This document shows, piece after piece, positions 12,752 through 57,755 of a stretch of DNA of 64,000 nucleotides. Source of the stretch: Candidatus Latescibacterota bacterium (GTDB lineage: Bacteria > Latescibacterota > UBA2968); assembly GCA_965116885.1 (NCBI GenBank), contig OZ220741.1, positions 4,512,001 through 4,576,000 of the forward strand, given 5' to 3'. The notes under the pieces were generated by a model, which did no database searches, was not told where the DNA came from, and was given only the letters and a program-made list of their open reading frames with translations. Numbering within the stretch: the stretch's first letter is position 1; the number at the start of each line of letters is the position of its first letter. The translations under genes and the position numbers were made by a program.

Positions 12752-15700
12752 TCAAGCATTAATTGGAGGTAAACCAATGCTTTCAGTGGTCTCTTCTGCG
12801 AGGGCTTCAAAGACCTGTGATTCTTCCACCACATCTGTATCCAAATCGCGATATTTCAAAGCACCTGTACCGGCGGGAATGAGGTGCCCGATGATCACAT
12901 TTTCCTTTAATCCCAACAGCGCGTCAACTTTACCCTGTACTGCTGCTTCGGTAAGCACGCGGGTAGTTTCCTGGAAAGACGCTGCCGAAATGAAACTCTC
13001 GGTCAAAAGAGAGGCTCGGGTAATCCCCAACAAGATGGGATTGTTAGTTGCAGGATCGCCCCCTTCATCGCCTCCTTCAGCGAGGACCTTTTCATTTTCC
13101 TCGAGGAAGCGGAACCGGTCAACGAGTTCGTCTTCGAGAAAATTGGTATCTCCAGGATCTGTCACCTGTACTTTCTGCAACATCTGCCGGACTATGGTTT
13201 CAATATGCTTGTCATTGATTTTCACACCCTGGAGCCGATAAACCTGCTGAATTTCGTCAAGGAGATATTCCTGAACTTTCCGATCCCCCAGAATAGCCAG
13301 AATATCGTGTGGATTTACCGACCCTTCTGAGAGACGATCACCAGCAGTCACGCGATCACCTTCTTGCACGCGCAGATGTCGCCCGTAGGGAATGGTGTAT
13401 TTTTTTTCTTCTCCCTCATCAGCCGTGACCAGGACAACACGCGAGCCTCTCACCATACCACCAAAGCGCACCGAGCCGTTGATTTCTGTTACCACAGAAG
13501 CCTCTTTGGGGCGACGCGCCTCAAAAAGCTCAGCAACACGCGGCAAACCACCTGTAATATCTCGTGTTTTGCTGCGTTCTCGCGAAATTTTAGCCAGTGT
13601 ATCGCCATCTGCTACCTGATCGCCATCGTGTACCACCAGCCGCGCTCCCAGGGGAATGATATAATGCCCCAACTCTGCGCCGTCTTCATCAACAACCTTA
13701 ATGTGCGGAGATAAAGTGCGGTCTCGGTGCTCAATCACGACCAGTCCAGCAATGCTGGTAGTTTCATCGATTTCTTCGCGATATGTCATCCCTTCTACGA
13801 GATCCCCAAACTGAACCCTACCAGCTTTGGGCGATACAATCACATTATTATAGGGATCCCATTCGTAGAGTGCCTGGTCCTCTTCCACATCTTGTCCGTC
13901 CTCCACCCGCAACACGGCTCCATGCGGTACATGGTAGTGCCCCCCTCTTACACGTCCCTGATCATCCTGTACTTCGATCTCACCATTTCGACCGACCACA
14001 ACCCACGAATTTTCATCGCGCTGGACAGACTCGAGATGCTTAAAGATGACTTTTCCCGCACGCTTTGCACCAATCTCGGCCTGCTCGGCAATGCGGTTGG
14101 TAGTACCACCAATATGAAAAGTGCGCAATGTCAGTTGCGTTCCCGGTTCACCCACACTCTGAGCCGCGATAACACCCACAGCCTCTCCAATATCAACAGG
14201 TAGCCCGGTGGCGGGATTGCGACCATAACAGGCCATACAGACCCCTCGCCGAGTTTCACACGTCAGTACAGACCGCACAAAGACGCCTTCAATACCTGCA
14301 TCGGCAATTTTGTCAGCCAATTCTTCATCCAATAAAACGCCTGCGTCAACAATGCGGTCGCCTGTAATGGGGTCTTCCACATCCTCTAGCACTGTGCGTC
14401 CTACAATGCGGTCAGACAGCGATTCAACAACTTCTTCGCCTTCTTTCAAGGCTTCCATTTCAATGCCTAATATCGTTCCACAATCGGCTTCAGAAATAAC
14501 CACATCTTGCGACACATCCACCATGCGACGCGTCAAGTATCCCGCTTCAGCGGTCTTCAAGGCCGTATCGGCCAGACCCTTGCGACTGCCGTGCGTCGAA
14601 ATAAAATACTCAAGTACTGTCAGGCCTTCTTTAAGTGACGAAATAATAGGTGTTTCAATAATTTCGCCTATCGCTCCCGTCAATTTCTTTTGCGGTTTAT
14701 TCATCAGCCCGCGCATACCACCGAGTTGCTTGATCTGATCGTCGTTGCCTCGCGCGCCTGAATCCTTCATAATCCAGATCGAATTGAAGCCATTTTCGGC
14801 TTTTTCAAATGCACCAATCATGGCCTGGGCAATGTGATTAGTCGTATGCTGCCACACATCAATTACTTTGTTGTAGCGTTCGCCCTCAGTAATAGCCCCG
14901 ATCGCGTGTTGTTCAATAATTTTTTCTACTTCGTCCATAGCACCGGTAATCAACTCTTCCTTTTCAGGAGGCACGACCACATCGCTCACAGCAATCGAAA
15001 TACCCGACCGCGTCGCATAATCGTATCCCAATTTCTTCAAGCCATCGAGAAAATCTGTCGTAATGCGGTTGCCATACCGACTGTGGACTTCAGAAGAAAC
15101 TTTGCGGATACCTTTGTCATCGATCAACTCATTGATAAAGGGCATCGTTTCAGGGATAATTTCATTAAAAATGACGCGCCCAACTGTAGTTATCAAAAGT
15201 TTGCCATCAATGCGAACGCGCACGGCTTCGTGCAAGCCAATGCGTTCAAAATCATACGCCATGCGAGCTTCACCGGTACTGCTGAAGGTTTTGAGGTCCT
15301 CTTCCTTACCGTGAACGATTTTTGTCAGATAATACAGACCCAATGCTATTTCCTGAGGTTTATCGACCACAACAGGAGACCCATCGGCGGGTTTGAGCAA
15401 ATTGTTTGAAGACAACATCAATACCCGCGCTTCAATCTGGGCCTCGAAAGAAAGCGGCAGATGCACGGCCATTTGATCACCGTCAAAATCGGCATTAAAT
15501 GCCGCACAGACCAGAGGGTGAATGCGAATGGCTTTGCCTTCTACGAGCACGGGTAAAAACGCCTGAATCCCCAGGCGATGCAATGTCGGGGCGCGATTGA
15601 GTAAAACGCAGTGATCCTGGATAATTTCTTCGAGGATATCCCATACTTCGACGCGTTCGCGTTCGACCAATTTCTTTGCACTTTTAACGGTTTGAACAAG

Positions 15701-16855
15701 CCCCTTTTCTTCGAGCCGCCGAATAATAAATGGCTTGAATAATTCCAGAGCCATATGTTTGGGCAGACCGCATTGATAAAGCCTCAAATGGGGATCGACC
15801 ACAATCACAGAACGGCCCGAATAATCGACGCGTTTACCCAAAAGATTCTGGCGGAACCGGCCTTGTTTACCCTTGAGCAGATCGGAGAGCGACTTGAGAG
15901 AACGGTTGCCATCACCGCGAACAGCACGGGACCGACGGCCATTGTCAAACAGAGCGTCTACAGCCTCTTGAAGCATGCGTTTTTCATTGCGTAAAATGAC
16001 TTCGGGTGCTTTGATTTCAATCAGTTTTTTGAGCCGATTATTCCTATTGATCACGCGGCGATACAAATCATTGAGATCCGAAGTTGCAAACCGCCCGCCC
16101 TCTAAGGGTACAAGAGGACGCAAGTCGGGCGGGATGACGGGAATCACATCGAGAATCATCCAATCGGGCTGATTATCAGATTGGCGGAACGCCTCAACGA
16201 CCTTGAGGCGTTTGAGTGCATCCTGTTTGCGCTGCACCGAAGTCTCGAAACGAGCTTGTGTTCGCAGTTCAGCAGACAAGTCCTCAATATCGATTGCAGA
16301 CAGCAGTTTTTTGATTGCGCCAGCCCCCATATCGACATCAAATGAATACCCCTCATCTTCGAGATCAATCACCTCATCTTCAGTGAGCAAATCCTTGAAT
16401 TTGAGATCTGGAGCATCACCGGGATCCAGCACCACATACGATTCGTAGTAAATGATCCGCTCGAGATTGCGAACGGAAAGATTGAGCAAATACCCCATGC
16501 GAGATGGGAGCGACTTAAAAAACCAGATATGTGTCACCGGAACCGCCAATTCGATATGCCCCAGCCGTTCTCGTCTAACTTTCGATTGGGTCACTTCTAC
16601 CCCACACCGGTCACACACCACCCCCCGATATCGAATGCGCTTGTATTTACCACAATGGCACTCCCAGTCTTTAACAGGCCCAAAAATGCATTCGCAAAAT
16701 AAACCATCGCGCTCGGGCTTAAAAGACCGATAATTGATGGTTTCCGGTTTGGTGACCTCGCCGCGAGACCACCCGCGGATGGTTTCTGGCGAAGCCAGTT
16801 GAATGCGAATTGAATTAAAATCTAAGGGTTGATTGGCAAAATTGGCATCGGCCAC
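12752..16855 (-). CDS. rpoC: DNA-directed RNA polymerase beta' subunit
   Basis: NADFDGDQM catalytic motif; CHCGK/CDRC zinc ribbon; trigger loop [10 protein letters not shown]. Confidence 0.99.
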
Positions 16856-16894: not shown

Positions 16895-19800
16895 CTACGC
16901 GCTTTCGAGCACCACGTCCAAACACAGACTTTGCAATTCTTTAACCAGAACATTAAATGATTCCGGCACACCGGGTTCGGGTGGATTTTCTCCCTTTACA
17001 ATGGTCTCGTAAATTTTGGATCTGCCCGCCACATCGTCGGACTTGACAGTGAGCATTTCCTGTAACATGTGTGCAGCACCATAAGCTTCGAGCGCCCAAA
17101 CTTCCATTTCCCCAAAGCGCTGCCCGCCAAATTGGGCTTTGCCGCCCAAAGGTTGCTGGGTGACCAGTGAATAGGGTCCAATCGAACGCGCGTGAATCTT
17201 ATCACTGACCAAATGCGATAGTTTCAACATATAAATGATGCCGACCATCACTTCTTTATCAAATGGTTCCCCTGTTTGACCATCGTAAAGGAGTGTTTTT
17301 CCGTTTTCGGGCAAACCAGCTTCTCGCAACATATCCTGGACATCGTCCATGCTCGCGCCATCAAACACAGGGGTCGCAAAGTGGAGATCCAGTTTGTGGG
17401 CTGCCCAACCCAAATGGGTTTCGAGGATTTGGCCGAGATTCATGCGAGATGGTACACCGAGCGGATTCAAAACCAGGTCAATAGGTGTACCATCGGGCAA
17501 ATAGGGCATATCTTCTTCGGGCACGATAATCGAAATCACACCCTTATTGCCGTGCCTACCAGCCATTTTATCCCCTACCATCAGCTTTCTTTTTCGGGCG
17601 ACATACACCTTGACCAGTTGCACAATGCCCGGCGGAAGTTCATCTCCGCGCGCGATTTTTTCAAGCTCTCGCTCGAGTTCTTCTTCAGCCTGCTGCATCA
17701 CGTAAGCGGCCAGTTCAATCAATCGATCCACTTTTTGGGTTATCGCTGGACTATCACACCAATCCCCGTCGGGTGTTACAGCGCCCAGGTCAAATTTTTC
17801 CAGCGACCTTTCATTCAGCACCGTGCCTGCCTTTGCAACCACCTTGCCGTCTTCATCGCGCAGGGTATTGACTTTGCGGTTTTTGAGAAGAGTCAAAACC
17901 TGCTGATCGCGGCTTTGTTTCAATGACTCAATCTTGTCAGAAATGCGTTTTCTGGCAGCTTGGGTCTTTTCTTTATCTTCATTTCGCGTCTTTTCATCGC
18001 GCTCTTTACGAGAAAAAACTTTGCGATCCATGACCACGCCATCCATTCCCGGAGGAGCTTTGAGCGATGCATCGCGCACATCGCCGGCCTTTTCGCCAAA
18101 AATCGCACGCAACAAACGCTCTTCGGGCGACAATTCGGTTTCGCCCTTTGGGGTCACCTTCCCAACGAGAATATCACCCTGATTGACCTCTGCCCCCACG
18201 CGAATGATGCCGTGCTCATCGAGGTTGCGAACAGCCTGCTCACTCACGTTGGGAATTTCACGCGTAATTTCTTCTGTGCCGCGTTTGGTATCGCGGACCT
18301 GGAGTTCAAATTCTTCAATGCTAATTGACGTGAAAATATCCTTTTTAATGAGCCGTTCAGAAACAATAATGGCATCTTCAAAGTTGTATCCATGCCACGA
18401 CATAAACGCCACGAGCACATTGGAACCAAGCGCGAGATCCCCTCTATCTGTGGCACAACCATCAGCCAATAACTGACCTTTTTCAACTTTATCACCAACC
18501 TGTACGGCCGGACGCTGGTTGATACAAAAATCTTGATTGGATCGCTTGAATTTGGTCAAATCGTAAATGTCTTCATCAGACAGCGAAATGGTTTCAATAC
18601 TGCGGCTTTTTCTGCGCTTGACGACAATTTTGTTGGCACTGACATACGTCACAACACCAGCGTTTTTCGCAATGATCACAGCTTTTGAATCAACGGCAAC
18701 TTTGCGCTCGAGGCCCGTTCCAACACGCGGGGCATCCGTGATTAAGAGAGGCACACCTTGCCGCTGCATATTAGATCCCATCAATGCGCGGTTGGCCTCA
18801 TCGTGCTCGAGAAAAGGAATGAGTCCGGCGGCGGCACTCACAAGCTGGAAGGGTGAAACGTCCATATAGTCAATCACTTCGGGATCAACCACGGGAAAAT
18901 CGCCTCGCCGCCTCGCCTGCACGACATTATTTTCAAATTCGCCCTTGTCGTCAAGCGCCAGATTGGCCTGTGCAATGGTATGGCGATCTTCTTCGTCGGC
19001 AGGCAAATATGCAATATCCTGTGAAACTTTGCCACTTTTGACCTTCCGATAGGGCGTCTCGAGAAAGCCAAAGGGATTGACCTTGGCATACGTAGCCACA
19101 GACACAATCAGGCCAATATTTGGGCCTTCTGGCGTTTCGATAGGACAAATGCGGCCGTAGTGCGTGTGATGCACATCGCGCACCTCAAACCCCGCTCGAT
19201 CGCGCGTTAATCCCCCAGGTCCTAATGCCGACAAACGGCGTTTGTGGGTCAATTCGTCAAGCGGATTGATCTGCTGCAAAAACTGCGATAATTGGCTGCT
19301 GCCAAAAAAGGCCTGAACCACAGTAGATACAGTCCGCGCGTTGACCAGATCGTGGGGAGTAAGTTGCTCGGAATCGCGCAAACTCATGCGCTCCCTAATC
19401 GTGCGCGCCATGCGTGCCAAACCAATACTAAATTGCTTGGAGAGCAACTCGCCAACAGAGCGCACCCGCCGATTGCCCAAATGATCGATATCATCGGTAA
19501 ATCCCTCCCCCATAGCCAGAGTGAGTAGATAGTCGATGACTTTGATAAAGTCATCAATACACAGCATGGTGAAGTCAAGCGGAATATTATCGATCATATC
19601 CAAACGCTGGTTAATGCGATAGCGCCCAACAGTACCCAAATTATAACGCCGAGGACTGAAAAAATGTCGCTCGAGCAATCCGCGCGCAGTTTCAATATTG
19701 GGTGGATCGCCAGGGCGCAGCAGGCTATAAATCCGCGCGAGTGCTTCTTCCTCGTTGTCACACGGATCTTTGTCCAGCGTATTGTTAATAATCCCGCCAT

Positions 19801-20659
19801 CGTTTTCTGGATCGATATCCATCACAGTGATTTTGACAATCGCATTTTCCTTAAGGGCTAAGAGATGTTCCTCCATCAATGTGGTATAGGCTTCGACAAT
19901 CACTTCTCCCGTCTTTTTATTAACCACATCTTCGGTAACAATGCAATCGACGAGTTCTTCAGTAACTCTGACTGTGGTATCACCGTGAAAAATGCCCAGA
20001 ATTTCCTCGGACTTGTCAAATCCCAAAGCTCTCAACAAAGTCGTAACCGGCAATTTGCGTTTACGGTCGATATGAACGTACATAATATCGTTGATATCGA
20101 GGCTAAATTCGAGCCAGGCTCCGTTGTCGGGAATGATTCTGGCTGAAAATAAACGCTTGCCATTAGGATGAATGGAGTCGTCAAAAAATACGCCAGGAGA
20201 ACGGTGTAATTGGCTGACGATCACACGCTCTGAACCATTGATGACAAATGTACCTTCATCGGTCATCAACGGCAGTTCGCCTAAAAACACTGTCTGCTCG
20301 ACGATATCTTTAACGCGAAATTCGCTATTTCCCTGCTTTTCTCGGGAAACCAGACGGAGTGTCGAACGCAGAGGTACGGCATGAGTCGTACCGCGTTCGA
20401 GACATTCTTGTACATCGTATTTAGGAGTTCCAACGGAATAATCTACAAACTCTAAAGAATAGAGATTGTGGGCGTCTGTGATCGGGAAGATACCCTGGAA
20501 GACCGCCTGTAGTCCTTGCTTTTCGCGTGCTACAGGCGGTATATCCTTCTGTAAAAACCAGTCATAAGAATCGAGCTGGATATCCAGCAGATTCGGCATT
20601 TCGATTGCAGACGTGAGAGTTCCATACGATTTCCGGTCAATAAATCCTCTATCTGCCAA
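16895..20659 (-). CDS. rpoB: DNA-directed RNA polymerase beta subunit
   Basis: [33 protein letters not shown]. Confidence 0.99.
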
Positions 20660-20732: not shown

Positions 20733-21101
20733 CTACTTGAGTTCCACCACCGCACCGGCTTCTTCCAGTTCTGCCTTGATCTGTTCGGCTTCTTCTTTTT
20801 CCACGCCTTCTCTTACGGTATTGGGAGCCCCATCAACCAGAGCTTTGGCTTCTTTAAGGCCCAATGAGGTAAGGCCGCGCACAACCTTGATCACCTGGAT
20901 CTTTTTATCCCCAGGAGACGACAAAACCACATCAAACTCTGTCTGCTCTTCTGCAACAGGAGCAGCATCGCCGCCATCGGGTGCTGCAACAACAGCTGCC
21001 TGTGCAGTCACACCAAACTTTTCCTCAAGAGCTTTGACCAATTCGGCCAACTCGAGCACTGAGAGTTTTTCAATTTCGCTAATAATGGATTCAACAGCCA
21101 T
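20733..21101 (-). CDS. rplL: 50S ribosomal protein L7/L12
   Basis: [26 protein letters not shown]. Confidence 0.98.
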
Positions 21102-21146
21102 GAACATGCCTCCGTCCAACAATGAATTGGGTGTGTGATAAGCGGT

Positions 21147-21680
21147 CTATTCGCCGCTTTCTTCCTCTTTTTTTTCTGCAACAGCTTGAAGTGTACCAAC
21201 GAGTTTTTGCAAAATGCCATTCAGCGTAAAGGCGAGGCCACTGATCGGACTTTGCATTGCAGATACCATCTGGCCCAGCAGAACATCGCGCGAAGGTATT
21301 TGGGCCAGCCTCTCTATCTGGTCTGCGACAAATATATCACCATCGATATACCCGGCTTTAATCGCGGGCTTGCCTTCGGTATCTTCAGCGAATTTGGACA
21401 GCACACGGGCCGGTGCTACTGGATCTTCATCGGCGCAAACAAGCCCAGTGGGACCGCGAAACACATCATCGAGCCCCTCAACTCCGGCTTGTTTAAGTGC
21501 CAATTTAGCCAACCGATTTTTTATTACGCGGTAAGAAACCGATTCCTCGCGGAGTTGCTTTCGCAACAGGGTGAATGAAGGAACGTCTAACCCCGTAAAA
21601 TCAGTTAGATACACCCCCTTGGCCCGTTTTAAGATATCTGTCAATTCTGCGACAGTAGCCTCTTTTTCAGCAGTTGGCAT
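21147..21680 (-). CDS. rplJ: 50S ribosomal protein L10
   Basis: MPTAEK start after AAGGAAGG; LRKQLR...VIKNRL; GPTG. Confidence 0.96.
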
Positions 21681-21697
21681 TTCTGTACCTTCCTTGT

Positions 21698-22399
21698 TCA
21701 ATTGGCCGCCAGCGCCGTGCGGTCCAGGCGGATGCCCGGCCCCATTGTAGTAGATAATGTGACCGAGCGCATGTACTGCCCTTTTGTAGCAGCTGGACGC
21801 GCTCTAATAATTGCATCGACCAATACCTGGGCATTTTCCCGAAGGCGCTGTGCATCAAAAGACGCTTTGCCCACAGGCGTATGCACATTGGCCGTTCTAT
21901 CGACTCGATATTCTACACGCCCCGCTTTGGCTTCCTGTACCGCACGCGCCGCATCGGGCGTCACCGTACCACTCTTGGGATTGGGCATCAGACCTCGAGG
22001 TCCAAGAATGCGTCCCAATCGTCCGACCTGTCCCATCATATCGGGCGTAGCAATAGCCACATCGAAATCTGTCCAGCCACCATTGATCTTTTCTACCAGA
22101 TCTTCGGCTCCTACAAAATCTGCCCCCGCCGCTTCGGCAGCAGTAGCAGGCTCCCCTTTGGCAAAAACTGCAACGCGTACGGATTTGCCCAGCCCGTGTG
22201 GCAAGACGACTGTGCCGCGCACGAGTTGATCGGCTTGCCGAGGATCAACGCCCAGCCGAAACGAAATCTCAACCGTTTCGTCAAATTTCCGAGTGGGCAT
22301 TTTTTTTAAGATGTCAATGGCGTCGGCCAGACTGTAATGCGTTTGGCGGTCAAAAAGCGCAGCCGCTTGTTTATAGCGTTTGGATTGCCCTCGTGCCAT
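21698..22399 (-). CDS. rplA: 50S ribosomal protein L1
   Basis: [28 protein letters not shown]. Confidence 0.99.
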
Positions 22400-22411
22400 A
22401 CATACCTCCGG

Positions 22412-22837
22412 TCAATTGTTGACGGTCAGGCCCATACTGCGAGCCGTCCCTGCAATCATGCGCTTGGCAGCCTCGACGCTGCCCGCGTTGAGGTCTTGAA
22501 CTTTCATTTCTGCAATTTCCTGTAGTTGGGCATCGGTCACGGCCCCCACTTTTTCTCGGTTGGATTCCGGCGATCCTTTGGCTATCCCCGCTGCCCTTTT
22601 GAGCAATACGGATGCAGGTGGGCTTTTCAATTCAAAAGAAAAACTCCTATCTGCGTAAACCGTGATAATCGCGGGAATGATCAAACCCTGTTTGTCCTGA
22701 GTTTGTGCATTAAAAGCTTTGCAAAACTCCATAATATTGACGCCGTGCTGTCCCAAAGCCGGACCAACCGGTGGGGTGGGAGTCGCCTGCCCAGCGGGGA
22801 TTTGCAACTTGATTGTCGTGAGAATTTTTTTCGCCAT
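22412..22837 (-). CDS. rplK: 50S ribosomal protein L11
   Basis: [29 protein letters not shown]. Confidence 0.99.
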
Positions 22838-22849
22838 TGGTGCCTCTCA

Positions 22850-23386
22850 TTATCGCGATTCGACAGCTTCTTCAACCTGCAAAACATCTAATTCTACAGG
22901 TGTATTGCGTCCAAAGATACTAACCATTACTTTGATCTTGCTCTTTTCTGGATTGATGTCGTCAACCAGGCCAATAAAATCGCTGAAAGGCCCATCTATC
23001 ACCTTGACGCGATCACCTACTTGATATGGAACATCAGAGGTTTCCTCGACCGGACGACGCTCAATTTGCCCCAAAATGCGGTTCACCTCTTCCTCGCGCA
23101 AAGGTTGTGGTCTCCGACCTGGACCGACAAAGCTCGTCACGCCCGGCACACTGGTGACAAAGTAGAGGGACTCTTTGTCCATATCCAGTTCAACCAAAAG
23201 GTAACTGGGCAAAAATTTCTTGAGGGAGGTCGTTTTCCGTCCATCCTTCATCTCCACGACTTCTTCAGTTGGCACAATCACCCGACCAATTTTGTCGCCA
23301 ACATCGATGTTCTCTTTGGCGGCCTCAATATAGCTCTTGACCTTATTTTCGTGCCCAGAATAAGTGTGGACAACGTACCATTTCAT
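22850..23386 (-). CDS. nusG: Transcription termination/antitermination factor NusG
   Basis: MKWYVVHTYSGHE; KOW GDRVKVIDGPF; IFGRNTPVEL. Confidence 0.98.
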   Translation of the reverse strand: MKWYVVHTYSGHENKVKSYIEAAKENIDVGDKIGRVIVPTEEVVEMKDGRKTTSLKKFLPSYLLVELDMDKESLYFVTSVPGVTSFVGPGRRPQPLREEEVNRILGQIERRPVEETSDVPYQVGDRVKVIDGPFSDFIGLVDDINPEKSKIKVMVSIFGRNTPVELDVLQVEEAVESR

Positions 23387-23416
23387 CAGTCGAAAACTCC
23401 CTGACAAAAAATCCCG

Positions 23417-29677: not shown

Positions 29678-31516
29678 CTAAATACACCGCTCCAGCGCAC
29701 CGATCAAATCTTCGGTCTGCGCGAACAACGCCTGCATCTGCTCTGCCGAAATCTGTCCCGGCGCAAACCGCGCCTGATCGCATTGACCAAATACGTCTTG
29801 AACGCCCGAAATTACCTGTGTATCTACACCGTGACCCACCAGCACAGCACCAATCTGGTCCGCCGTTAAACCCGCCGCAGCGCGATTGGTTCGATCTGCG
29901 ACAAACTGCGCCAAAGACCTGTGAACTTCACCGTGAAAACCCGCACTATCTCCCGCCTCCATTAACCCTTTGGCCTTGCCCAACCGCCGCTGTGCTTCCG
30001 AGCGCGAACGCCTTCTGCGCGCATAAGCGACATCACCTTCCAGACGCGCGCGATGACGCCGATAAGCATACGCGCCAACCACCCCCAAAAAGGGAACCAA
30101 CTGCAAAAGCCAAAACCCACTGCGCTGATAGAGTAACAGACTCTGATCGACCAAATGCATTCGATCGGGCTTGATATACCGAATATCGCTGCCCAGCGCG
30201 CGCACTTCTTCACCCCGCAACCCGTCAACTGGCTGCGGTGCCAATTCACCTGGCGTCACATGCAACGTAATGGGTTTGGTCTGTACGGTTTTATACCGCC
30301 TCTGCACAGGATCAAAATAGGCCAGGGTAAAAGGCGGTAATATCACCTGCCCCGCTTTTTGCGGGATCGCCACATATTCAAAAGTTTTTTTTCCGCTTAT
30401 ACCCTGCTTTTGTGTTTCCAAATTCGTCTTGGGATCATAAAACTTAAACCGCGCCCGGTCAGGACGAATCGGCTCGCCAATCGCGTGCAAGTTTCCCGCT
30501 CCCTGTACCACCACCTTCACAGCAACGGGATCGCCAGCTTTTACCTTATCAGGAATCGCCTCAGCGCGCATCTCAAATTGCCCAACAGCACCGCCAAAAC
30601 CCTTCGGCGCACCAGCAGGCAACGGTTTCACCTCAATTTCAATATCGCCTGACCGCACTGTCACCTGCTGCGTATCAAACGCACCAAATGGATCAAAATC
30701 GAACAGACCGCGCGACCGTCGCCCCGCAACAATTTCGCAATTCACCTCAAGTTGCTCCAGGGTGTGCTTACCCGCCGTTGTCGGAAACAGTGCCAAACGC
30801 TTAAGCAATGCCGTATTAAACGCGCGCCCATCGACAACCTCTCGCTGCATATTCAAACGCTGAGCATCAAACACAGTCTCTGCCCAAAATCCCGTAAATG
30901 TCGGCACATGGCCGTATTGCACATTTCGCAAATCATAACGCGTAAACAATTTATAGGTCACTCCCACTTGTTCCCCCACATAAACCACTCGCTTTTCGGG
31001 AATCGCCTGCAAAAACAAATTTTGTTCAATTTCCCGAATCTCTGACCGTCCCATTGACCGTCCCGTTGATGGCGCGGGGCGCGTCTGCGGACGACCACTC
31101 CTTTTCACTACCTCAACGCGCACCTGGTCAGACCGAATTGTCTTACCATCATGAGCCAACTGCGCCGGACCGAGCACATAAGTGCCTTGTCTCTGTGCGC
31201 GAAAAGAAAAAACATACGCTGTCGTGCGCTTTGTTGTCATCTCGCCATTGGCAATATTGACGGACATTGACGTAGAAGACGTACTACCCGTCAATTGCAA
31301 CCCATCAGGTGTGGGAACCTGGGGTGCAGACACACTACCCATCTGTGCAGCCTCAACCTCCACAGTGAACTGGATCAAATCGCCAACTTCTACCCGAGTG
31401 CGATCTACTGACGCCTGCACCGTCACATCCTGTGCATCAATCCCCTGTGCCCACAACAGAGCAAACAAAACACCGCACAAAAATATCCACCTTTTCCTAC
31501 CATGCATTGCCATCAT
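29678..31516 (-). CDS. batD: BatD family oxygen-tolerance protein
   Basis: Signal peptide; ASVDRTRV, VYVGEQV, GAVGQF, YFDP, DIRYIK, TM, ARFAP. Confidence 0.87.
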   Translation of the reverse strand: MMAMHGRKRWIFLCGVLFALLWAQGIDAQDVTVQASVDRTRVEVGDLIQFTVEVEAAQMGSVSAPQVPTPDGLQLTGSTSSTSMSVNIANGEMTTKRTTAYVFSFRAQRQGTYVLGPAQLAHDGKTIRSDQVRVEVVKRSGRPQTRPAPSTGRSMGRSEIREIEQNLFLQAIPEKRVVYVGEQVGVTYKLFTRYDLRNVQYGHVPTFTGFWAETVFDAQRLNMQREVVDGRAFNTALLKRLALFPTTAGKHTLEQLEVNCEIVAGRRSRGLFDFDPFGAFDTQQVTVRSGDIEIEVKPLPAGAPKGFGGAVGQFEMRAEAIPDKVKAGDPVAVKVVVQGAGNLHAIGEPIRPDRARFKFYDPKTNLETQKQGISGKKTFEYVAIPQKAGQVILPPFTLAYFDPVQRRYKTVQTKPITLHVTPGELAPQPVDGLRGEEVRALGSDIRYIKPDRMHLVDQSLLLYQRSGFWLLQLVPFLGVVGAYAYRRHRARLEGDVAYARRRRSRSEAQRRLGKAKGLMEAGDSAGFHGEVHRSLAQFVADRTNRAAAGLTADQIGAVLVGHGVDTQVISGVQDVFGQCDQARFAPGQISAEQMQALFAQTEDLIGALERCI

Positions 31517-32225
31517 ATCGCCTGCCCCGCAACTTCAATTTGCGTCGCTTCTGGGATTCTTCTTCTCGCGCCTTCATCGCATTGAGAATCCGCGCCGCCT
31601 CCTCGGGCGTCATCTCTCTGGGATCGGGCTGTTGCCCCTGCTGTTGATCCTGTTGATCCTGTTGATCCTGTTGATCCTGATTCTGATCTTGCTGATTCTG
31701 GTCTTGCTGATTCTGGTCTTGATTTTGACTTTGGTCCTGCTGATCCCGGTTTTGATCTTGATTTTTATCCTGTTCATCCTGTTGATTTTTATCCTGCCTA
31801 TCCTGATCCAGTTTTTCCAATGCCAATTCCAAATTAATTTTGGCGTCTATATCATCCGGCTTTATCTCGAGTGATTTTTTATAAGCGCCCACAGCTTCCT
31901 GAAACTTCTCCTGCCGAAACAGCGCATTGCCCAAATTGTAATGTGCAGCAGCAGACATATCCGGATGCGTGCCTTCGGTGGCACGCCCCATCTCCTGCAG
32001 GGCCTCGGCATATTTACCCTGCTTGTAGAGTGCATCGCCAGCATTAAAATGCAATACCGGTCGGGGTTGCCCTTCTTGCTGTGCTTCTAAATACCGACGC
32101 AATGCAGCTTCGTACTCCCCCTTTTCAAACAGCGCATTGCCCTCTTCATTCTTTTTTGCCACGGGATCGAGAAATGTCCACCCCAGGAATGGCACTGCCA
32201 GCAAAACATATAAAAATCGCGTCAT
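31497..32225 (-). CDS. batC: BatC-like TPR protein with Q/D/N-rich linker
   Basis: TPRs (HYNLGNALF, DAKINLELA), low-complexity linker, EEAARIL, C-terminal W. Confidence 0.85.
   Translation of the reverse strand: MTRFLYVLLAVPFLGWTFLDPVAKKNEEGNALFEKGEYEAALRRYLEAQQEGQPRPVLHFNAGDALYKQGKYAEALQEMGRATEGTHPDMSAAAHYNLGNALFRQEKFQEAVGAYKKSLEIKPDDIDAKINLELALEKLDQDRQDKNQQDEQDKNQDQNRDQQDQSQNQDQNQQDQNQQDQNQDQQDQQDQQDQQQGQQPDPREMTPEEAARILNAMKAREEESQKRRKLKLRGRRYDGNAW
31631..31810 (-). repeat. Coding low-complexity repeat (Q/D/N linker of BatC)
   Basis: Repeated CTGTTGATC and 15-nt CTTGCTGATTCTGRT units encoding QQD/QNQQD. Confidence 0.8.
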
Positions 32226-32237
32226 AAAAAAGCCTCT

Positions 32238-32314
32238 TAGTTGTCAGTAGCCAGTTATCAGTCCCAGCCACCCAACCCTATAATTTTTAATTTTTAATTC
32301 CCAATTCTTAATTG
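32238..32314. repeat. Degenerate heptamer repeats, intergenic
   Basis: TAGTTGT CAGTAGC CAGTTAT CAGTCCC then TAATTTT TAATTTT TAATTCC CAATTCT TAATTG. Confidence 0.7.
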
Positions 32315-33337
32315 TTATTCAAATCGCCCGCGCCATGCTTCTTCACTGCGTCGCCGATCCGATAACAGAGCCTCGCTCACAAAACAAAACAGAGCAAGAG
32401 CCAACGGCCATTGGAACCTGTGAATATACTGCGCGTAACGCTGCGTTCCCAAATCGCGCTTCTCCATCTCTGAAATCCGTTCATGCACCGCCTGCAATCC
32501 AATCCCTCCGCCGCTGGCACGCACATATAAACCATCGGTCACACGCGCGATCTCCTTCAGAATTGCTTCATCCAACCGCGTCTTGACAATCTTGCCCTCA
32601 GAATCCTTCAAATAATCTACCCTATCGCCAGCGCGGATCGGAATCAACTCACCCTCCGCAGTCCCCACACCCACAGCAAATATTCGCACATCCTCTTCCG
32701 CTGCCGCTCGTGCTGCTGCAATGGGGTCGCCCCCATGATTTTCGCCATCTGTAATCAAAATGAGCGCTTTGTATTTCCCATTGCGCGCCCCAAATCCTCG
32801 AATGGCCGCGCGAATCGCTTCGGCAACTGCCGTGCCCTGCTCTGAAATCAACGTGACATCGGCCTGCCCCAAAAACATCTTTGCCGCGCCATAATCCAGC
32901 GTAAGCGGACAGAGTACATGGCTATAACCGGCAAAAGCCACCAAGCCGATGCGGTCGCCTTCAAGGCGATCGATCAACCCCTCAATTTCAAAACGCGCGC
33001 GATCCAGCCTATTGGGTTTAATATCCTCGGCCAACATACTCAACGACGTATCCAGAACAATCACCAGATCGACGCCCCGACGATGGATCAATTCCAATTC
33101 GGTGCCGAACTGCGGTTGTACCAGTGCCAGAATCAAAAAAATGAATCCAACACACACCAGCGTGGATTTTATGCCTTGCCGCATGCGACTGACACCCGAA
33201 GCGAGTTTATCCATCAACTCGGGAGCACCAAACGCATACAGCGCCCTGCGCTTGCGTCGAAATGCCCACCAGTAAAAAAGCGCGAAAACCGGCACGCACA
33301 AAAGGAAATAAAAAGCCTGTGGATCGCCAAACCGCAT
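32315..33337 (-). CDS. batB: BatB-like von Willebrand factor A protein
   Basis: N-terminal TM, MIDAS DTSLSM, PLTLD, ITDGE, GVGTAEGELIP. Confidence 0.88.
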   Translation of the reverse strand: MRFGDPQAFYFLLCVPVFALFYWWAFRRKRRALYAFGAPELMDKLASGVSRMRQGIKSTLVCVGFIFLILALVQPQFGTELELIHRRGVDLVIVLDTSLSMLAEDIKPNRLDRARFEIEGLIDRLEGDRIGLVAFAGYSHVLCPLTLDYGAAKMFLGQADVTLISEQGTAVAEAIRAAIRGFGARNGKYKALILITDGENHGGDPIAAARAAAEEDVRIFAVGVGTAEGELIPIRAGDRVDYLKDSEGKIVKTRLDEAILKEIARVTDGLYVRASGGGIGLQAVHERISEMEKRDLGTQRYAQYIHRFQWPLALALFCFVSEALLSDRRRSEEAWRGRFE

Positions 33338-34336
33338 CTAAGGCAACCTCCGAAATCGCGTATTGCCCAGCACCAATTCCAATGACAGCAATGCCAACCC
33401 GGAATAGAGAAACAGGTGAAACAACTCGCGATAATCCACATATTCGCGCACTTTGATCTCTGTCTTTTCCATTTCGCCAATCTCAGCGTATATCTCCTCC
33501 AGTTTTTCTTCACTCGTCGCTCTGAAATACTTCCCACCTGTTGCATCCGCTACTTTTTTAAGCGTCTCTTCGTCAATCTCAACTTTGACCGGTACAAATC
33601 GCTTACCAAAAATCCCATCAACCTCCTGCATAATCGTACCCCTGCTGCCAGCGCCAATCGCATAAATGCGAATCCCCACAGCCTCTGCTGCACGCGCTGC
33701 GGTCATCGGATCGATCTCACCGCGATTATTCTTCCCATCTGTCAATAAAATAATCACCTTACTCTTAGCCTCAGATTCTCGCAAACGATTCACCGCAGTT
33801 GCGATCCCCAAACCAATGGCAGTGCCATCCCAGTCTTTGCCGGCAATTTCAACACCATCGAGAAAACTCAAAAACACGCCGTAATCCAGCGTAAGCGGGC
33901 ATTGCGTATAGGCTTCTGCGGCAAAGACCACAAGCCCCAGACGATCATTGGCACGCCCCTGTGCAAATTGCGCTACCACCTCTTTGCACACTTCCAACCG
34001 GGTCTTGCGCTGGTCCGCCAGATCTTTGGCCTCCATACTGCTCGACACATCAATCGCCAGCGCAATATCAATACCTTGACTTAAAATTTCTCGGCCTTCG
34101 CGCCCTGACTGCGGCCGCGCCATCGCCGCAATGAGCAAAGCCAGAGCCACACAGCGAAACGCGATCAAACTATGCCGCAGTTTCAGCGAAAAGGACGGGC
34201 CAATACGCCGAAAAAGGCGCGTATCGGAAAAACGAATGCGCCCCGACTTGCGCCTTTCGCGCCCAATATAGCGATAGATGAGTACCGGAATAAACAACAG
34301 GAGCAGCAACCACTCCGGATTGGCAAAACGCATCAC
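33338..34336 (-). CDS. batA: BatA-like von Willebrand factor A protein
   Basis: MRFANPEWL, ARPQ, MIDAS DVSSSM, GTAIG, LLTDGKNNRG, TGGKYFRA. Confidence 0.9.
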   Translation of the reverse strand: MMRFANPEWLLLLLFIPVLIYRYIGRERRKSGRIRFSDTRLFRRIGPSFSLKLRHSLIAFRCVALALLIAAMARPQSGREGREILSQGIDIALAIDVSSSMEAKDLADQRKTRLEVCKEVVAQFAQGRANDRLGLVVFAAEAYTQCPLTLDYGVFLSFLDGVEIAGKDWDGTAIGLGIATAVNRLRESEAKSKVIILLTDGKNNRGEIDPMTAARAAEAVGIRIYAIGAGSRGTIMQEVDGIFGKRFVPVKVEIDEETLKKVADATGGKYFRATSEEKLEEIYAEIGEMEKTEIKVREYVDYRELFHLFLYSGLALLSLELVLGNTRFRRLP

Positions 34337-35256
34337 TGGACTGTCTCCTGCGTCACAGAAGGTGTAACCAGAGTGCTCACAATGTCGCGCACGCCATCCA
34401 TCGCCTCGCGCGCCATGTAATCACGCGGTGCAAATTTGGCAAACTTGACCCGATCTGCCTCATTCAAAAAACCTTCTATAGCCATCACCAATTGGTCGTC
34501 AAACGCCTGGGTACGCAGATCCCGCCCAATTTCAAACGTCGTACGCTCCAGTGCCTGCACGGGGGTTTTATCTTCCAAACACCGCCTCAAAACAGCCGAC
34601 AATAGAGAATAATACTGCCGGTAATTTTCCCGCTCTATCAGCCCTAACTGTCCCACCCTGTCCAACTCCTCTAACCAGTTGACAGGCGGCGGTGGCAACT
34701 CGGCTCTGGGGCGACGCCCGCGGCGATAAACATACCAGACCAATCCTGCAAGCAATAGAATCAGCCCGCCAACCACCAGCCAAAACCACACGGGAATCTG
34801 TGCGACCACAACCATCGGAGGCTTCACATCGCGAATATCCGTTGTGCCTTCTGGTCTGACACTCCGCACCAATACATCAATGGGTTGCGACGCGATTTTT
34901 CCAGAATCTCCCTCTGCATCGACAAAATGCACTGAAACGGGCGGCACGCGAAATGCGCCCACCTGATAAATCGCCAGCACGATGTCTTGCGTTTCCCGCA
35001 CCCGTCCATTTTCAAGTTGCTCTATTTCAACTTCGCCTGTGTACCGAATTTCAAATGGCTGGGGAAAATCTTTTTCGTACGCGATTTCTGCCTTATCATC
35101 AACCCCGCGATGGATGCGCAGACGCAAAACAAAAGGGTCGCCAATTGTAATGGTGTCGCGGTCAATCCCTGTCAAAAATTCTACCGTTGCATCGGTCGGA
35201 ACGGTTTGTATTCCGATCCAAACTATGACGAAAAAGAAAAAATAAATTTTACGCAT
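34333..35256 (-). CDS. bat-operon-associated membrane protein (Ig-like domain + TM)
   Basis: Signal peptide, TIGDP, IRDVKPP, TM, ADRVKFAK; typical of the gene preceding batA; start overlap with batA. Confidence 0.7.
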   Translation of the reverse strand: MRKIYFFFFVIVWIGIQTVPTDATVEFLTGIDRDTITIGDPFVLRLRIHRGVDDKAEIAYEKDFPQPFEIRYTGEVEIEQLENGRVRETQDIVLAIYQVGAFRVPPVSVHFVDAEGDSGKIASQPIDVLVRSVRPEGTTDIRDVKPPMVVVAQIPVWFWLVVGGLILLLAGLVWYVYRRGRRPRAELPPPPVNWLEELDRVGQLGLIERENYRQYYSLLSAVLRRCLEDKTPVQALERTTFEIGRDLRTQAFDDQLVMAIEGFLNEADRVKFAKFAPRDYMAREAMDGVRDIVSTLVTPSVTQETVQ

Positions 35257-35341
35257 GACGAATCAACGGAATGGAGTACAACTGGTTCAGGCCAGTTCAA
35301 TCGAGCATGACTGCGCCAGCAGTTCATCAGCGAATCTCGCA

Positions 35342-36709
35342 CTAATTTGGGGGGGCAGGGCGGGATTCGTCTATATGGAGTTGCAACCACGACATCACCG
35401 AATACGGCAATACAACCACCTCGCGGTGCGTTTTGGCCGTGCCGTACCAAAAATTGTTGGTCTGCCCAATGATCAGTTCTTGCACCAGAGTTTCACCCCG
35501 CCACAAAGAAACCGTCAACACGGGGTCATTCAGACTATCTGCGGCGGATTTATCCACTTGATCGGGAAACTCGACAACGACCAGATTGTGAACGCGGTCA
35601 ATCAAATCTTCAATGTTGGCGTCCCCTTTGACAATGCGCCTACCCCCTACCACCACCTGCCATAAGCCATCCCCATCCTTCGCACAATTCACCACGCTGT
35701 CTCGATAGGCCAACCGCACGCGATCAACTCCTGTGCGATCAAACTCAAAAACGCGCTTATAACGCAATCGGGCCAATGGAATATCCAGAGCTTCTGCGAG
35801 CAATTGTTCGACGATAAACACCTGCGGCCGACTCATTACGCGCCCATACCACAGTTTCTGCCGAACATTGGGAACGCGCCTGCCCAACAACAGCGTATTG
35901 GGCACTTCATTATCTATTAAATGCAGCACAACTTTGTAATCCGGATTGTCGAACCCGTAAGTTGTGGGATCTTCCACTGCCTCTTTGTGAAAAGATGTAA
36001 CGCGCTCATCTTTCAACTGTCTCAACAATGTCAAAATCTCGCGCGCATCAGCCCGCTCTTTTATCGGCTGAACGAGATGCCACTTCAACCCATCCCGCAC
36101 GACCTCATAAACGCCTCCAGGCGTTTGGAAATACGCTCGCGAGACCAAATCGGGATCAAAGGAAAACGCCCGCGTATCGCGCAATGCCATCAGCGGACGA
36201 TTAAACCGCGCGCGATATTGTTTTTTTGTCAACACGACCTTATCCCCTCCCGACCAGGTCAGATAGCACCCCTGCTTTGAGGGAATATCATCTCCAAAAA
36301 ACAACCACACGGGATCGCCTGATACCGGTTCAAATCGCACCTCAACCACGGGAGGATCCAACCCAAAATCGGCGAGATTAGTCTCTGCGTAATCGCCTTC
36401 ATCAACCACAACACGACCGCGTTCAACAATCTGTGCGATCTCGATCATACCCTCAAATTCTATCCAATCTGCAGGTACTTCCAGCGGCGCGATCAGCACC
36501 CACTCATTGCCGCGCTTCTCAGCGATAAAGTGCCCGTAGTCATTGGCCAATGTCAACCGCGCAACACCGTGCCGCTGAACTTCAATAAACGCATTCTTTG
36601 CCTCAATCTCGCGTTGTTCCTCTGCCATGCGAGGACGTTCAAATAAAAAGACAAACCCCACCAGGCCCAAAAGCAAAACCGCCAAAATCGCTGTCACCTT
36701 AAGACCCAC
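35342..36709 (-). CDS. DUF4340-domain protein (GldG-type ABC-system partner)
   Basis: N-terminal TM; repeated W.L..P...AD and FGLDPP/YGFDNP motifs; follows GldG gene; GTG start after AGGA. Confidence 0.75.
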   Translation of the reverse strand: MGLKVTAILAVLLLGLVGFVFLFERPRMAEEQREIEAKNAFIEVQRHGVARLTLANDYGHFIAEKRGNEWVLIAPLEVPADWIEFEGMIEIAQIVERGRVVVDEGDYAETNLADFGLDPPVVEVRFEPVSGDPVWLFFGDDIPSKQGCYLTWSGGDKVVLTKKQYRARFNRPLMALRDTRAFSFDPDLVSRAYFQTPGGVYEVVRDGLKWHLVQPIKERADAREILTLLRQLKDERVTSFHKEAVEDPTTYGFDNPDYKVVLHLIDNEVPNTLLLGRRVPNVRQKLWYGRVMSRPQVFIVEQLLAEALDIPLARLRYKRVFEFDRTGVDRVRLAYRDSVVNCAKDGDGLWQVVVGGRRIVKGDANIEDLIDRVHNLVVVEFPDQVDKSAADSLNDPVLTVSLWRGETLVQELIIGQTNNFWYGTAKTHREVVVLPYSVMSWLQLHIDESRPAPPN

Positions 36710-47436: not shown

Positions 47437-47525
47437 GGTTAAACACGCTATAAAAAAGCGCGATGCTTGACAAGTCCCGCGCTTTGAACCAAATTCAGAT
47501 AAAATCTTTATTTTTCTTAACTATC

Positions 47526-49145: not shown

Positions 49146-49158
49146 TCGGAAAAGAGAA

Positions 49159-53737: not shown

Positions 53738-53765
53738 AATTCCCCTTCACCGCCCAAAATTGTTG

Positions 53766-53802
53766 CCTCACCTCACCCTTCACACTTCCTACTTCACACT
53801 TC
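53766..53802. repeat. Degenerate heptamer repeat, intergenic
   Basis: CTTCACA CTTCCTA CTTCACA CTTC directly before the ATG at 53804. Confidence 0.6.
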
Positions 53803-53803
53803 T

Positions 53804-57545: not shown

Positions 57546-57755
57546 GACGACCCTACCCTATCCCCCTCATATCTCACGTCTCACCGCCTTTTACTGTTGT
57601 AAAAATTCACACCTGTGCCATTGCGTCACATATCCCGCTTTTTCTTATATTTTATATCCTATTGTAATTAAACAAGTTAAAAATATTCAAGCCAATTGGC
57701 ACGCCATTTGCATAACACTTTACCGCACGCAAAAACCCCAACGGAGAAATGTGCG

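What the first reader, a model, noticed from the sequence alone, without database searches (positions are those of the whole stretch)
19223..19303. RpoB rifampicin pocket has D516Q and S522D (E. coli numbering): possible intrinsic rifamycin resistance
Seen: [27 protein letters not shown] versus E. coli [27 protein letters not shown] (Q codon 19274-19276, D codon 19256-19258; H526 and S531 retained). Established: D516 and S522 are classic Rif-resistance positions and D516 is nearly invariant. From memory, the rifamycin producer Amycolatopsis mediterranei has Q and D at these same positions; this needs verification. Inference: a housekeeping RNAP adapted to rifamycin exposure. Both changes need more than one nucleotide substitution, so sequencing error is unlikely.
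Basis: partly seen in the sequence, partly recalled or inferred. Interest (0 to 1): 0.7.

Follow-up and report, generated by a model that had tools for sequence, protein, structure and literature searches.

The report
Coupled RpoB rifampicin-pocket residue swap
The main RNA polymerase gene of this uncultured Latescibacterota bacterium carries, like its whole class, a paired change in the rifampicin-binding pocket that probably makes the enzyme naturally less sensitive to rifamycins; it is an old lineage trait, not a recent resistance mutation.

Summary
Window 16895-20659 (-) is the single housekeeping rpoB, and its cluster-I peptide has Q at E. coli position 516 and D at 522, with H526 and S531 kept.

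It is not a strain mutation. RRDRs were read in 157 of 168 Latescibacterota genomes: 128 are Q516/D522, 4 are A516/D522 and 25 are D516 with A or S at 522. All 124 read genomes of the window's own class are Q/D.

The two sites are strictly coupled. Neither mixed state occurs.

The same Q/D pair is fixed in 120 of 120 Poribacteria-type RpoBs. An AU test rejects one origin with the Latescibacterota pair, p 0.0015.

Published work lists 522D as a resistance substitution carried by Amycolatopsis rifamycinica, the species in which rifamycin B was discovered, and reports that nearly every 516 substitution gives resistance in E. coli. Intrinsic rifamycin insensitivity is therefore plausible but untested.

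"Adaptation to rifamycin exposure" cannot be judged. Q516 in Amycolatopsis could not be verified.

The parts
16895..20659 (-). rpoB, RNA polymerase beta subunit (1254 aa from the TTG start; the open frame extends to 1266 aa, and the true start was not determined)
   Evidence: Six Pfam beta-subunit domains. 54% identity to E. coli RpoB over the full length. It is the only full-length copy in the 5.56-Mb genome.
19223..19303 (-). Rif-resistance cluster I (E. coli 507-533): [27 protein letters not shown]
19274..19276 (-). CAG = Q at E. coli position 516 (P0001 Q462)
   Evidence: Q in 128 of 157 phylum genomes, A in 4 and D in 25.
19256..19258 (-). GAC = D at E. coli position 522 (P0001 D468)
   Evidence: D is present in exactly the 132 genomes that lack D516.
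19250..19252 (-). TTG = L at E. coli position 524 (I524L), a common natural variant
   Evidence: Yang et al. (PMC10550828, passage) find 524L in more than 10% of surveyed species, with fast-RNAP character in E. coli.
12752..16855 (-). rpoC, beta' subunit, directly downstream of rpoB
   Evidence: Pfam Rpb1 domains 1-5
20733..23407 (-). nusG-rplK-rplA-rplJ-rplL upstream of rpoB, the canonical housekeeping operon context
   Evidence: Pfam NusG/KOW, L11, L1, L10 and L7/L12. EF-G and EF-Tu lie downstream of rpoC.

Best explanation
This is the ordinary, single-copy housekeeping rpoB of a Latescibacterota bacterium.

Shown: in an ancestor of its class, the acidic residue of the rifampicin pocket moved from position 516 (D to Q) to position 522 (A or S to D). 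The two sites behave as a coupled pair. A polymerase has either an acid at 516 or an Asp at 522, never both and never neither. Once D522 is present, 516 varies among Q, A and S but never returns to D. The pair has been kept by purifying selection ever since. The same Q/D pair arose independently in Poribacteria, and an A/D pair occurs in a Bacillota-type RpoB.

Inferred: the most likely consequence is lower affinity for rifamycins, so the clade is intrinsically less sensitive. In that case it is a target-site polymorphism of the same kind as 531N in spirochaetes, 526N in mollicutes and 522D/531N in Amycolatopsis.

Not known: what selected the swap. It could be antibiotic exposure, tuning of RNAP kinetics, or compensated drift.
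For: Identity and context:
- Pfam domains and operon.
- One full-length copy in the genome.
- Nearest named records are Latescibacterota MAGs at 89-98% identity.

Lineage trait:
- 157 of 168 phylum genomes gave a match, and the RRDR was read in all 157.
- Q/D: 128 genomes. That is f1 30/30, f2 20/20, f3 3/3 and f4 71/71 (the window's class), plus f7 1, f13 1 and f14 2 of 4.
- A/D: 4 genomes (f9 2, f14 2).
- D516 with A or S at 522: 25 genomes (f5, f6, f8, f10, f11, f12).

Purifying selection: both synonymous codons occur at each site among the 20 sampled Q/D genomes.

Coupling:
- 0 exceptions among 117 of the 120 top hits of a 5.8-billion-protein search in which the RRDR could be read: 38 Q/D, 2 S/D, 77 D-type.
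- 0 exceptions among 137 readable of the 150 best 50%-identity cluster representatives: 131 D-type, 2 E516, 3 Q/D, 1 A/D.
- Pooled over 382 distinct RRDR contexts: 251 acid516/non-D522, 131 non-acid516/D522, 0 and 0 in the mixed cells.

Independent origins:
- 120 of 120 listed relatives of P0247 (57-100% identity) have Q/D. Five are named Candidatus Poribacteria, and no other organism name appears in the list.
- On the RpoB tree, Poribacteria lie outside the cluster that holds Latescibacterota.
- The AU test rejects one clade for all 20 rows with D522: delta lnL 65.2, p 0.0015.
- P0195, labelled Bacilli bacterium, has A/D. Its best solved-structure match is chain 6wvj_C, which from recall is B. 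subtilis.

Within the phylum, one origin is not rejected: AU p 0.319, with a minimum of 2 changes on the tree.

Resistance inference:
- 522D is in the curated panel and is carried by A. rifamycinica (PMC12337354, Discussion).
- Nearly every 516 substitution, and substitutions at S522, give high-level resistance in E. coli saturation mutagenesis (PMC10550828, passages).
Against: - No phenotype exists. These are uncultured bacteria.
- The residues described as hydrogen-bonding rifampicin (Q513, H526, S531), and F514 and R529, are all unchanged.
- Bolourchi et al. stress that a panel substitution need not give resistance, citing 526N in Bifidobacterium and 518D in Francisella.
- Some 516 substitutions in M. 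tuberculosis give only low or borderline MICs: D435Y 0.5-1 ug/mL, and D435G was modelled as causing no change (PMC8502021).
- That paper also finds that S441 (=522) does not touch rifampicin directly.
- The coupling itself suggests that D522 replaces a function of D516. It could also restore the electrostatics of the pocket, and with them drug binding.
- The single-mutant scores for D516Q and S522D in Yang et al. are in supplements that I could not open.
- The double mutant has not been measured in any text that I could read.
Confidence: 0.6

Rival explanations
1. Direct adaptation to antibiotics. The Q516/D522 pair was selected because ancestors of these clades lived with producers of rifamycins or of other compounds that bind the Rif pocket.
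For: - 522D is one of two panel substitutions in A. rifamycinica, the species in which rifamycin B was discovered (PMC12337354).
- The same pair was fixed independently in at least two phyla, as expected for a shared selective agent.
- Both positions give resistance when mutated in E. coli (PMC10550828).
- From recall, not from a call: Poribacteria are sponge symbionts, and rifamycin-producing Salinispora have been isolated from sponges.
Against: - The trait is class-deep and shows no link to any identified producer or habitat in the data I could examine.
- The usual high-level natural solutions (531N, 526N) are absent: H526 and S531 are kept in all 132 D522 genomes.
- The strict 516/522 coupling points to an internal structural constraint, which drug avoidance alone does not require.
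- Bolourchi et al. themselves caution that such substitutions may have evolved neutrally or under other pressures.
Confidence: 0.2
2. Compensated or kinetic tuning with no meaningful change in drug sensitivity. D522 takes over the role of D516 in the RNA exit path or sigma-finger environment, or the pair tunes RNAP speed and termination. Any effect on rifamycin is incidental or absent.
For: - The pattern is perfectly mutually exclusive: 0 mixed states in 382 contexts.
- 516 is free to be Q, A or S once D522 is present.
- A516 is nested twice inside Q516 clades.
- Yang et al. show that Rif-site substitutions change RNAP speed, nucleotide pools and temperature optimum, and that natural variants such as 524L (present here) have such phenotypes.
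Against: Single substitutions at both sites do confer resistance in E. coli, and 522D is treated as a resistance determinant in Amycolatopsis. A complete absence of effect on drug binding would therefore be surprising.
Confidence: 0.18
3. Assembly or sequencing error, or a recent resistance mutation of this one strain.
For: None found.
Against: The residues are identical in all 20 other genomes of the genus and in 128 genomes of the phylum, from independent assemblies and with synonymous codon variation. They also occur in 38 further database clusters.
Confidence: 0.01
4. Producer self-resistance, or a duplicated resistant rpoB paralogue of the Nocardia rpoB2 / Nonomuraea rpoB(R) type.
For: 522D is shared with A. 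rifamycinica.
Against: - The genome has only one full-length rpoB. The second hit is a 1069-aa beta/beta' fusion without a conserved RRDR.
- The 25 window ORFs of 250 aa or more that were scanned include no PKS domain; one carries the broad DegT/DnrJ/EryC1 aminotransferase family, inside a polysaccharide gene cluster.
- Genome-wide, the only PKS signal is one 3355-aa ORF with two KS domains, about 3.2 Mb away. That is far too small for an ansamycin assembly line.
- AHBA synthase itself was not searched.
Confidence: 0.01

Closest known systems
RpoB of the rifamycin-producing Amycolatopsis (A. rifamycinica / A. mediterranei)
   Same: It is a housekeeping rpoB carrying D at position 522 (PMC12337354). 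Changes in the Rif pocket are regarded as the main self-resistance determinant (PMC7283461, PMC6804068, PMC4551226; passages).
   Different: - The producer also has 531N, whereas S531 is kept here.
- The producer's rpoB lies next to the rif gene cluster. Here the neighbours are ribosomal-protein and translation-factor genes, and no ansamycin cluster was seen.
Clade-wide natural RRDR variants: 531N in Spirochaetia, 526N in Mollicutes, Erysipelotrichales and Bifidobacteriales
   Same: A substitution at a classic Rif-resistance position is fixed across a high-rank taxon in the only rpoB copy, and it predicts intrinsic resistance (PMC12337354, Results and Discussion).
   Different: - The positions differ (516 and 522).
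- Two sites change together and are mutually dependent.
- The carrier clades (a Latescibacterota class and Poribacteria) are not mentioned in that paper's main text. Its Dataset S3 was not seen.
Laboratory and clinical D516 and S522 substitutions (E. coli; M. tuberculosis D435, S441)
   Same: The positions are the same, and single substitutions confer resistance (PMC10550828; PMC8502021).
   Different: - D516Q needs two base changes and S522D three from the E. coli codons, so spontaneous mutants do not reach them.
- Here the two changes occur together, are ancient, and carry no sign of fitness cost.
Duplicated resistant rpoB paralogues (Nocardia rpoB2, Nonomuraea rpoB(R))
   Same: They are also natural target-based rifamycin resistance (PMC12337354).
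   Different: There is no second full-length rpoB here. The variant allele is the housekeeping gene itself.

Membership tests
Bacterial housekeeping RNA polymerase beta subunit (RpoB) | Full set of beta-subunit domains (Rpb2 domains 1, 2, 3, 45, 6, 7) | tested here: met
   All six Pfam families are far above their cut-offs.
Bacterial housekeeping RNA polymerase beta subunit (RpoB) | rplKAJL-rpoBC operon context and a single copy in the genome | tested here: met
   nusG-rplK-rplA-rplJ-rplL-rpoB-rpoC. One full-length match in the 1-contig genome.
Natural target-site rifamycin-insensitive RpoB (intrinsic RRDR variants) | A residue at a Rif-pocket position that is a documented resistance substitution | tested here: met
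   D at 522. 522D is in the 57-substitution panel of PMC12337354. Q at 516 is not named in any text I read, but position 516 is reported as resistant to nearly every substitution in E. coli.
Natural target-site rifamycin-insensitive RpoB (intrinsic RRDR variants) | Fixed across a clade, not polymorphic within it | tested here: met
   124 of 124 read genomes of the class, and 132 of 157 of the phylum, carry D522 with a non-acid at 516.
Natural target-site rifamycin-insensitive RpoB (intrinsic RRDR variants) | Measured resistance of the organism or the enzyme | not testable with these tools
   The lineage is uncultured and no assay is available.
Spirochaete / mollicute type (531N or 526N) | N at 531 or N at 526 | tested here: not met
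   H526 and S531 are retained. Within the phylum only family f6 has N526, in 3 of 3 genomes.
Producer self-resistance RpoB (Amycolatopsis type) | Resistant rpoB in a genome that encodes an ansamycin pathway | tested here: not met
   None of the 25 window ORFs scanned has a PKS domain; the one DegT/DnrJ/EryC1-family aminotransferase lies in a polysaccharide cluster. The genome has one 3355-aa ORF with two KS domains. AHBA synthase itself was not searched.
Producer self-resistance RpoB (Amycolatopsis type) | Residue set of the producer (522D, 531N and a third residue) | tested here: inconclusive
   522D is shared and 531N is not. The third residue of the producer could not be established.
Duplicated resistant rpoB paralogue (rpoB2 / rpoB(R)) | A second full-length rpoB with a divergent RRDR beside a sensitive copy | tested here: not met
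   The only other hit is a 1069-aa beta/beta' fusion protein.

The most novel reading that the evidence does not exclude
Positions 516 and 522 of bacterial RpoB form an obligate epistatic pair, with exactly one pocket acid, either at 516 or at 522. Gaining D522 is the gateway that lets the otherwise near-invariant D516 be lost. This route has been taken independently by a Latescibacterota class, by Poribacteria, by a Bacillota-type lineage and (predicted) by the rifamycin-producing Amycolatopsis.

On this reading it yields a low-cost, rifamycin-insensitive polymerase. Two whole candidate phyla would then be intrinsically resistant, which would record ancient exposure to Rif-pocket-binding natural products in sediments and sponges.
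Probability: 0.3. Interest if true: 0.7.

Novelty: new member of a known kind. Interest (0 to 1): 0.5.

Why it matters
Rifamycins are front-line drugs, and the Rif pocket is among the best-mapped antibiotic sites. Natural, clade-fixed variants show which resistant pockets cost the cell nothing.

This case adds three things:
- Two uncultured phyla join the short list of lineages predicted to be intrinsically insensitive.
- D516, usually treated as near-invariant, is dispensable only when Asp sits at 522. That is a simple, testable epistatic rule that single-mutant scans cannot reveal.
- The rule predicts that the roughly one third of Amycolatopsis species that carry one or both of 522D and 531N will, wherever 522D is present, also lack D516.

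For resistome surveys it is a warning that rpoB reads from these phyla will score as "Rif-resistance mutations" although they are ancestral housekeeping alleles.

Tried and rejected
1. Residue 516 of Amycolatopsis RpoB.
- Five full-text searches and passages of PMC7283461, PMC6804068, PMC5787919, PMC6175910, PMC4551226, PMC8532670 and bioRxiv 10.1101/2021.05.10.443488 gave only 'mutations in the pocket', 'three residues' and '522D and 531N'.
- Two recalled PMC ids were not held.
- No sequence route was left.

2. Supplements of Yang et al., which hold the per-mutant scores for D516Q and S522D.

3. The protein-atlas search gave no taxa for P0247. The search of earlier findings returned only two wild-type E. 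coli RRDR notes, and nothing for the fusion protein.

4. A516/D522 as the stepping stone from D/A to Q/D. This is not supported, because A516 rows sit nested inside Q516 clades twice (f9, and f14 G065/G066) on the RpoB tree.

5. Sequencing error, strain-level mutation, a second resistant rpoB, and producer self-resistance. All were rejected; see the rival explanations.

6. A link between the beta/beta' fusion gene and the Q/D pair. The fusion is found only in families that carry D522, but it is absent from f13 and f14 and from many Q/D genomes. The pattern is confounded by shared ancestry, so I make no claim.

7. Distance between residues 516 and 522. It could not be measured, because the structure tools return no coordinates. 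No fold was run.

Full report
What is there.

The finding lies in the 1254-codon ORF at window 16895-20659 on the minus strand. Pfam finds all six beta-subunit domains. The gene sits in the canonical nusG-rplK-rplA-rplJ-rplL-rpoB-rpoC arrangement, with EF-G and EF-Tu genes further downstream. The window is part of a 5.56-Mb single-contig genome that holds only one full-length rpoB. The nearest named public records are Candidatus Latescibacterota MAGs, at 89-98% protein identity.

The observation.

The peptide [27 protein letters not shown] is encoded at 19303..19223. Q (CAG) is at 19276..19274 and D (GAC) is at 19258..19256. I checked the numbering against E. coli MG1655 rpoB fetched by a tool in a full-length alignment with 54% identity. 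Within 507-534 the differences are M515L, D516Q, N518I, S522D, I524L and I530L. In cluster II only N573V differs. Identical residues are R143, V146, Q148, Q513, F514, H526, R529, S531, L533, G534, P564, E565, I572, S574 and R687.

The codon argument holds relative to E. coli, where GAC to CAG needs 2 changes and TCT to GAC needs 3. It is weaker relative to relatives that have Ala at 522.

It is a lineage trait.

A search of all 168 held genomes of the phylum found the region in 157. The 11 misses are 57-98% complete. I read the RRDR in all 157.
- 128 are Q516/D522.
- 4 are A516/D522.
- 25 are D516 with A or S at 522.

All four families of the window's own class are Q/D without exception (30/30, 20/20, 3/3, 71/71). 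Among 20 sampled Q/D genomes both synonymous codons occur at each site (CAG/CAA, GAC/GAT), so the residues are maintained by selection. Error and strain-level mutation are excluded.

The two sites are coupled.

In none of the 157 genomes does D516 occur with D522, and none has a non-acid at 516 without D522. The same holds in two wider samples:
- Among the 120 top hits of a targeted search of 5.8 billion proteins, the RRDR was readable in 117: 38 Q/D, 2 S/D and 77 D-type.
- Among the 150 best representatives of 50%-identity clusters from 1.84 billion proteins, it was readable in 137 (13 lacked a match to my RRDR pattern): 131 D516, 2 E516, 3 Q/D and 1 A/D.

These rows are not independent, so what matters is the number of separate origins.

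Origins.

On an RpoB tree of 36 phylum representatives and 14 outgroups (IQ-TREE, quick search), the D522 rows fall into three supported groups on an unresolved base. The minimum number of changes is 2, and an AU test does not reject a single origin within the phylum (p 0.319). A516 is nested inside Q516 clades twice, so it is derived, not an intermediate.

One representative with Q/D, P0247, proved to belong to another phylum. All 120 of its listed relatives (57-100% identity) have Q516/D522 in a different sequence background (GSNQLSQFMQQ[IV][15 protein letters not shown]). Five of them are named Candidatus Poribacteria, and none carries another organism name.

On FastTree and IQ-TREE trees, Poribacteria lie outside the well-supported cluster that contains Latescibacterota, Zixibacteria, Calditrichota and others. 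Forcing all 20 D522 rows together costs 65.2 log-likelihood units (AU p 0.0015). I named the group by the trait, but after I had seen the FastTree tree. The RRDR columns were left in the alignment, which favours the union.

A third case is P0195, a partial RpoB labelled Bacilli bacterium. It has A516/D522, and its best solved-structure match is chain 6wvj_C, which from recall is B. subtilis. It sits on a 1.6-kb contig, so its placement is weak.

What it probably does.

Three papers bear on this.
- Bolourchi et al. 2025 (PMC12337354; Results and part 1 of the Discussion read) compiled 57 robust resistance substitutions and screened 18,000 genomes. 522D is in the panel, and they state that A. 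rifamycinica carries 522D and 531N. They also warn that a panel residue need not give a phenotype.
- Yang et al. 2023 (PMC10550828; passages) made all single substitutions of the E. coli Rif site. Nearly every change at 516 gives high-level resistance, and S522 and H526 lie on one helix where changes give high-level resistance.
- A structure-based study of M. tuberculosis isolates (PMC8502021; passages) finds that residue 522 (S441) does not touch the drug but acts through H526 (H445). It also finds that 516 (D435) makes van der Waals contact, with substitution-dependent MICs.

Taken together, reduced rifamycin affinity is the most likely consequence. A D522-H526 interaction is a plausible route, but that is my inference. 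The effect of the pair is unmeasured, and the coupling itself leaves open that D522 restores what D516 provided.

What cannot be said.

Nothing here shows that rifamycin exposure selected the pair. The genome is not an ansamycin producer by the tests I ran:
- None of the 25 scanned window ORFs of 250 aa or more has a PKS domain; one belongs to the broad DegT/DnrJ/EryC1 aminotransferase family, within a polysaccharide gene cluster.
- Genome-wide there is one 3355-aa ORF with two KS domains, about 3.2 Mb away.
- AHBA synthase itself was not searched.

Is it in print?

The main text of Bolourchi et al. mentions neither Latescibacteria nor Poribacteria. Their species list is in a supplement that I did not see. 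Full-text searches for Latescibacter* with rifam* (7 papers) and for Poribacteria with rpoB (11 papers) returned nothing on this topic, judging by titles and abstract starts in the listings only. I found no statement of a 516/522 coupling in the texts I read.

Verdict.

This is a real, ordinary housekeeping gene with a clade-wide natural Rif-pocket variant. It is a new member of a known kind (intrinsic target-site variants). The added points of interest are the strict 516/522 acid swap and its independent recurrence.

In passing.

About 290 kb outside the window, the genome encodes a 1069-aa single polypeptide that combines beta-like and beta'-like catalytic parts. An ECF sigma factor and a DksA/TraR-type protein are encoded nearby. 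The family is annotated only as 'hypothetical'. It deserves its own study.

Noticed in passing
L282:8214-11423 (-) = G000:C1:4866214-4869423, about 290 kb outside the window: A 1069-aa ORF (P0397) fuses beta-like parts (Rpb2 domains 3 and 6) with a beta'-like part (Rpb1 domain 2). It keeps the beta motifs around CPYCTPEGPN, FLEHNDTNR and GDKLSNRHGFKG, and the beta' catalytic motif MNMDFDGDQ. It is a minimal two-barrel RNA polymerase in one polypeptide.

Its best solved-structure matches are cellular beta (E 3.5e-44) and beta' (E 1.4e-26). No NCBIfam model comes near its cut-off, PADLOC gives nothing, and PHROGs hits only families of unknown function or labelled as phage RNAP beta.

On the same strand lie a 381-aa ORF and a 315-aa ORF without any family, an ECF-type sigma factor, and a 344-aa DksA/TraR zinc-finger protein.

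Of 8000 scored candidates, 575 database proteins match at E<=1e-10. The only names given are 'hypothetical protein' (Gemmatimonadota- and Latescibacteria-labelled MAGs). The gene is present in 65 of 168 phylum genomes at E<=1e-60, including 20 of 20 other genomes of the genus.
   Followed up: partly
L254, L273, L276 (family f6 of the phylum: G036, G034, G035): All 3 of 3 genomes of family f6 have N at E. coli position 526, with D516/A522, plus ATS in place of GSS at 507-509 and G at 517. 526N is the natural variant that predicts resistance in mollicutes (PMC12337354). This is a second, different Rif-pocket variant within the same phylum.
   Followed up: partly
P0045, P0049 (Latescibacterota-type RpoBs, 79-83% identical to L099): Two database clusters have S at 516 with D at 522 (FLSQTNPLDE), a third non-acid state at 516 beside Q and A.
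   Followed up: partly
One of the 20 read f2-family genomes (locus not resolved): The RRDR reads ...QQTNRLDELSH..., with R in place of the otherwise invariant P520. It is a single genome and could be an assembly error.
   Followed up: no
P0190 and P0242 (cluster representatives): Two divergent RpoBs have E in place of D at 516 (E/G and E/A at 516/522). These are the only other departures from D516 among the 137 representatives, and they are consistent with the need for an acid at this site.
   Followed up: no
G000:C1:1332211-1341360 (-), outside the window: One 3355-aa open frame carries two ketosynthase domains and two PKS-type KS C-terminal extensions. It is the only type I PKS signal in the genome.
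   Followed up: no
window 16895-20659 (-): The rpoB start is uncertain. The listed ORF starts at TTG (1254 aa), but the frame is open for 1266 aa, and relatives show open frames of 1259-1290 aa.
   Followed up: no
window 29678-36709 (-) and 47463-59114 (+): The first stretch is a BatA/BatD/VWA aerotolerance-type gene row. The second is a polysaccharide and glycosylation cluster (Wzi, Wzy_C, GT2, DegT aminotransferase, GT4-methyltransferase fusion, PMT-like). Both are ordinary context.
   Followed up: no
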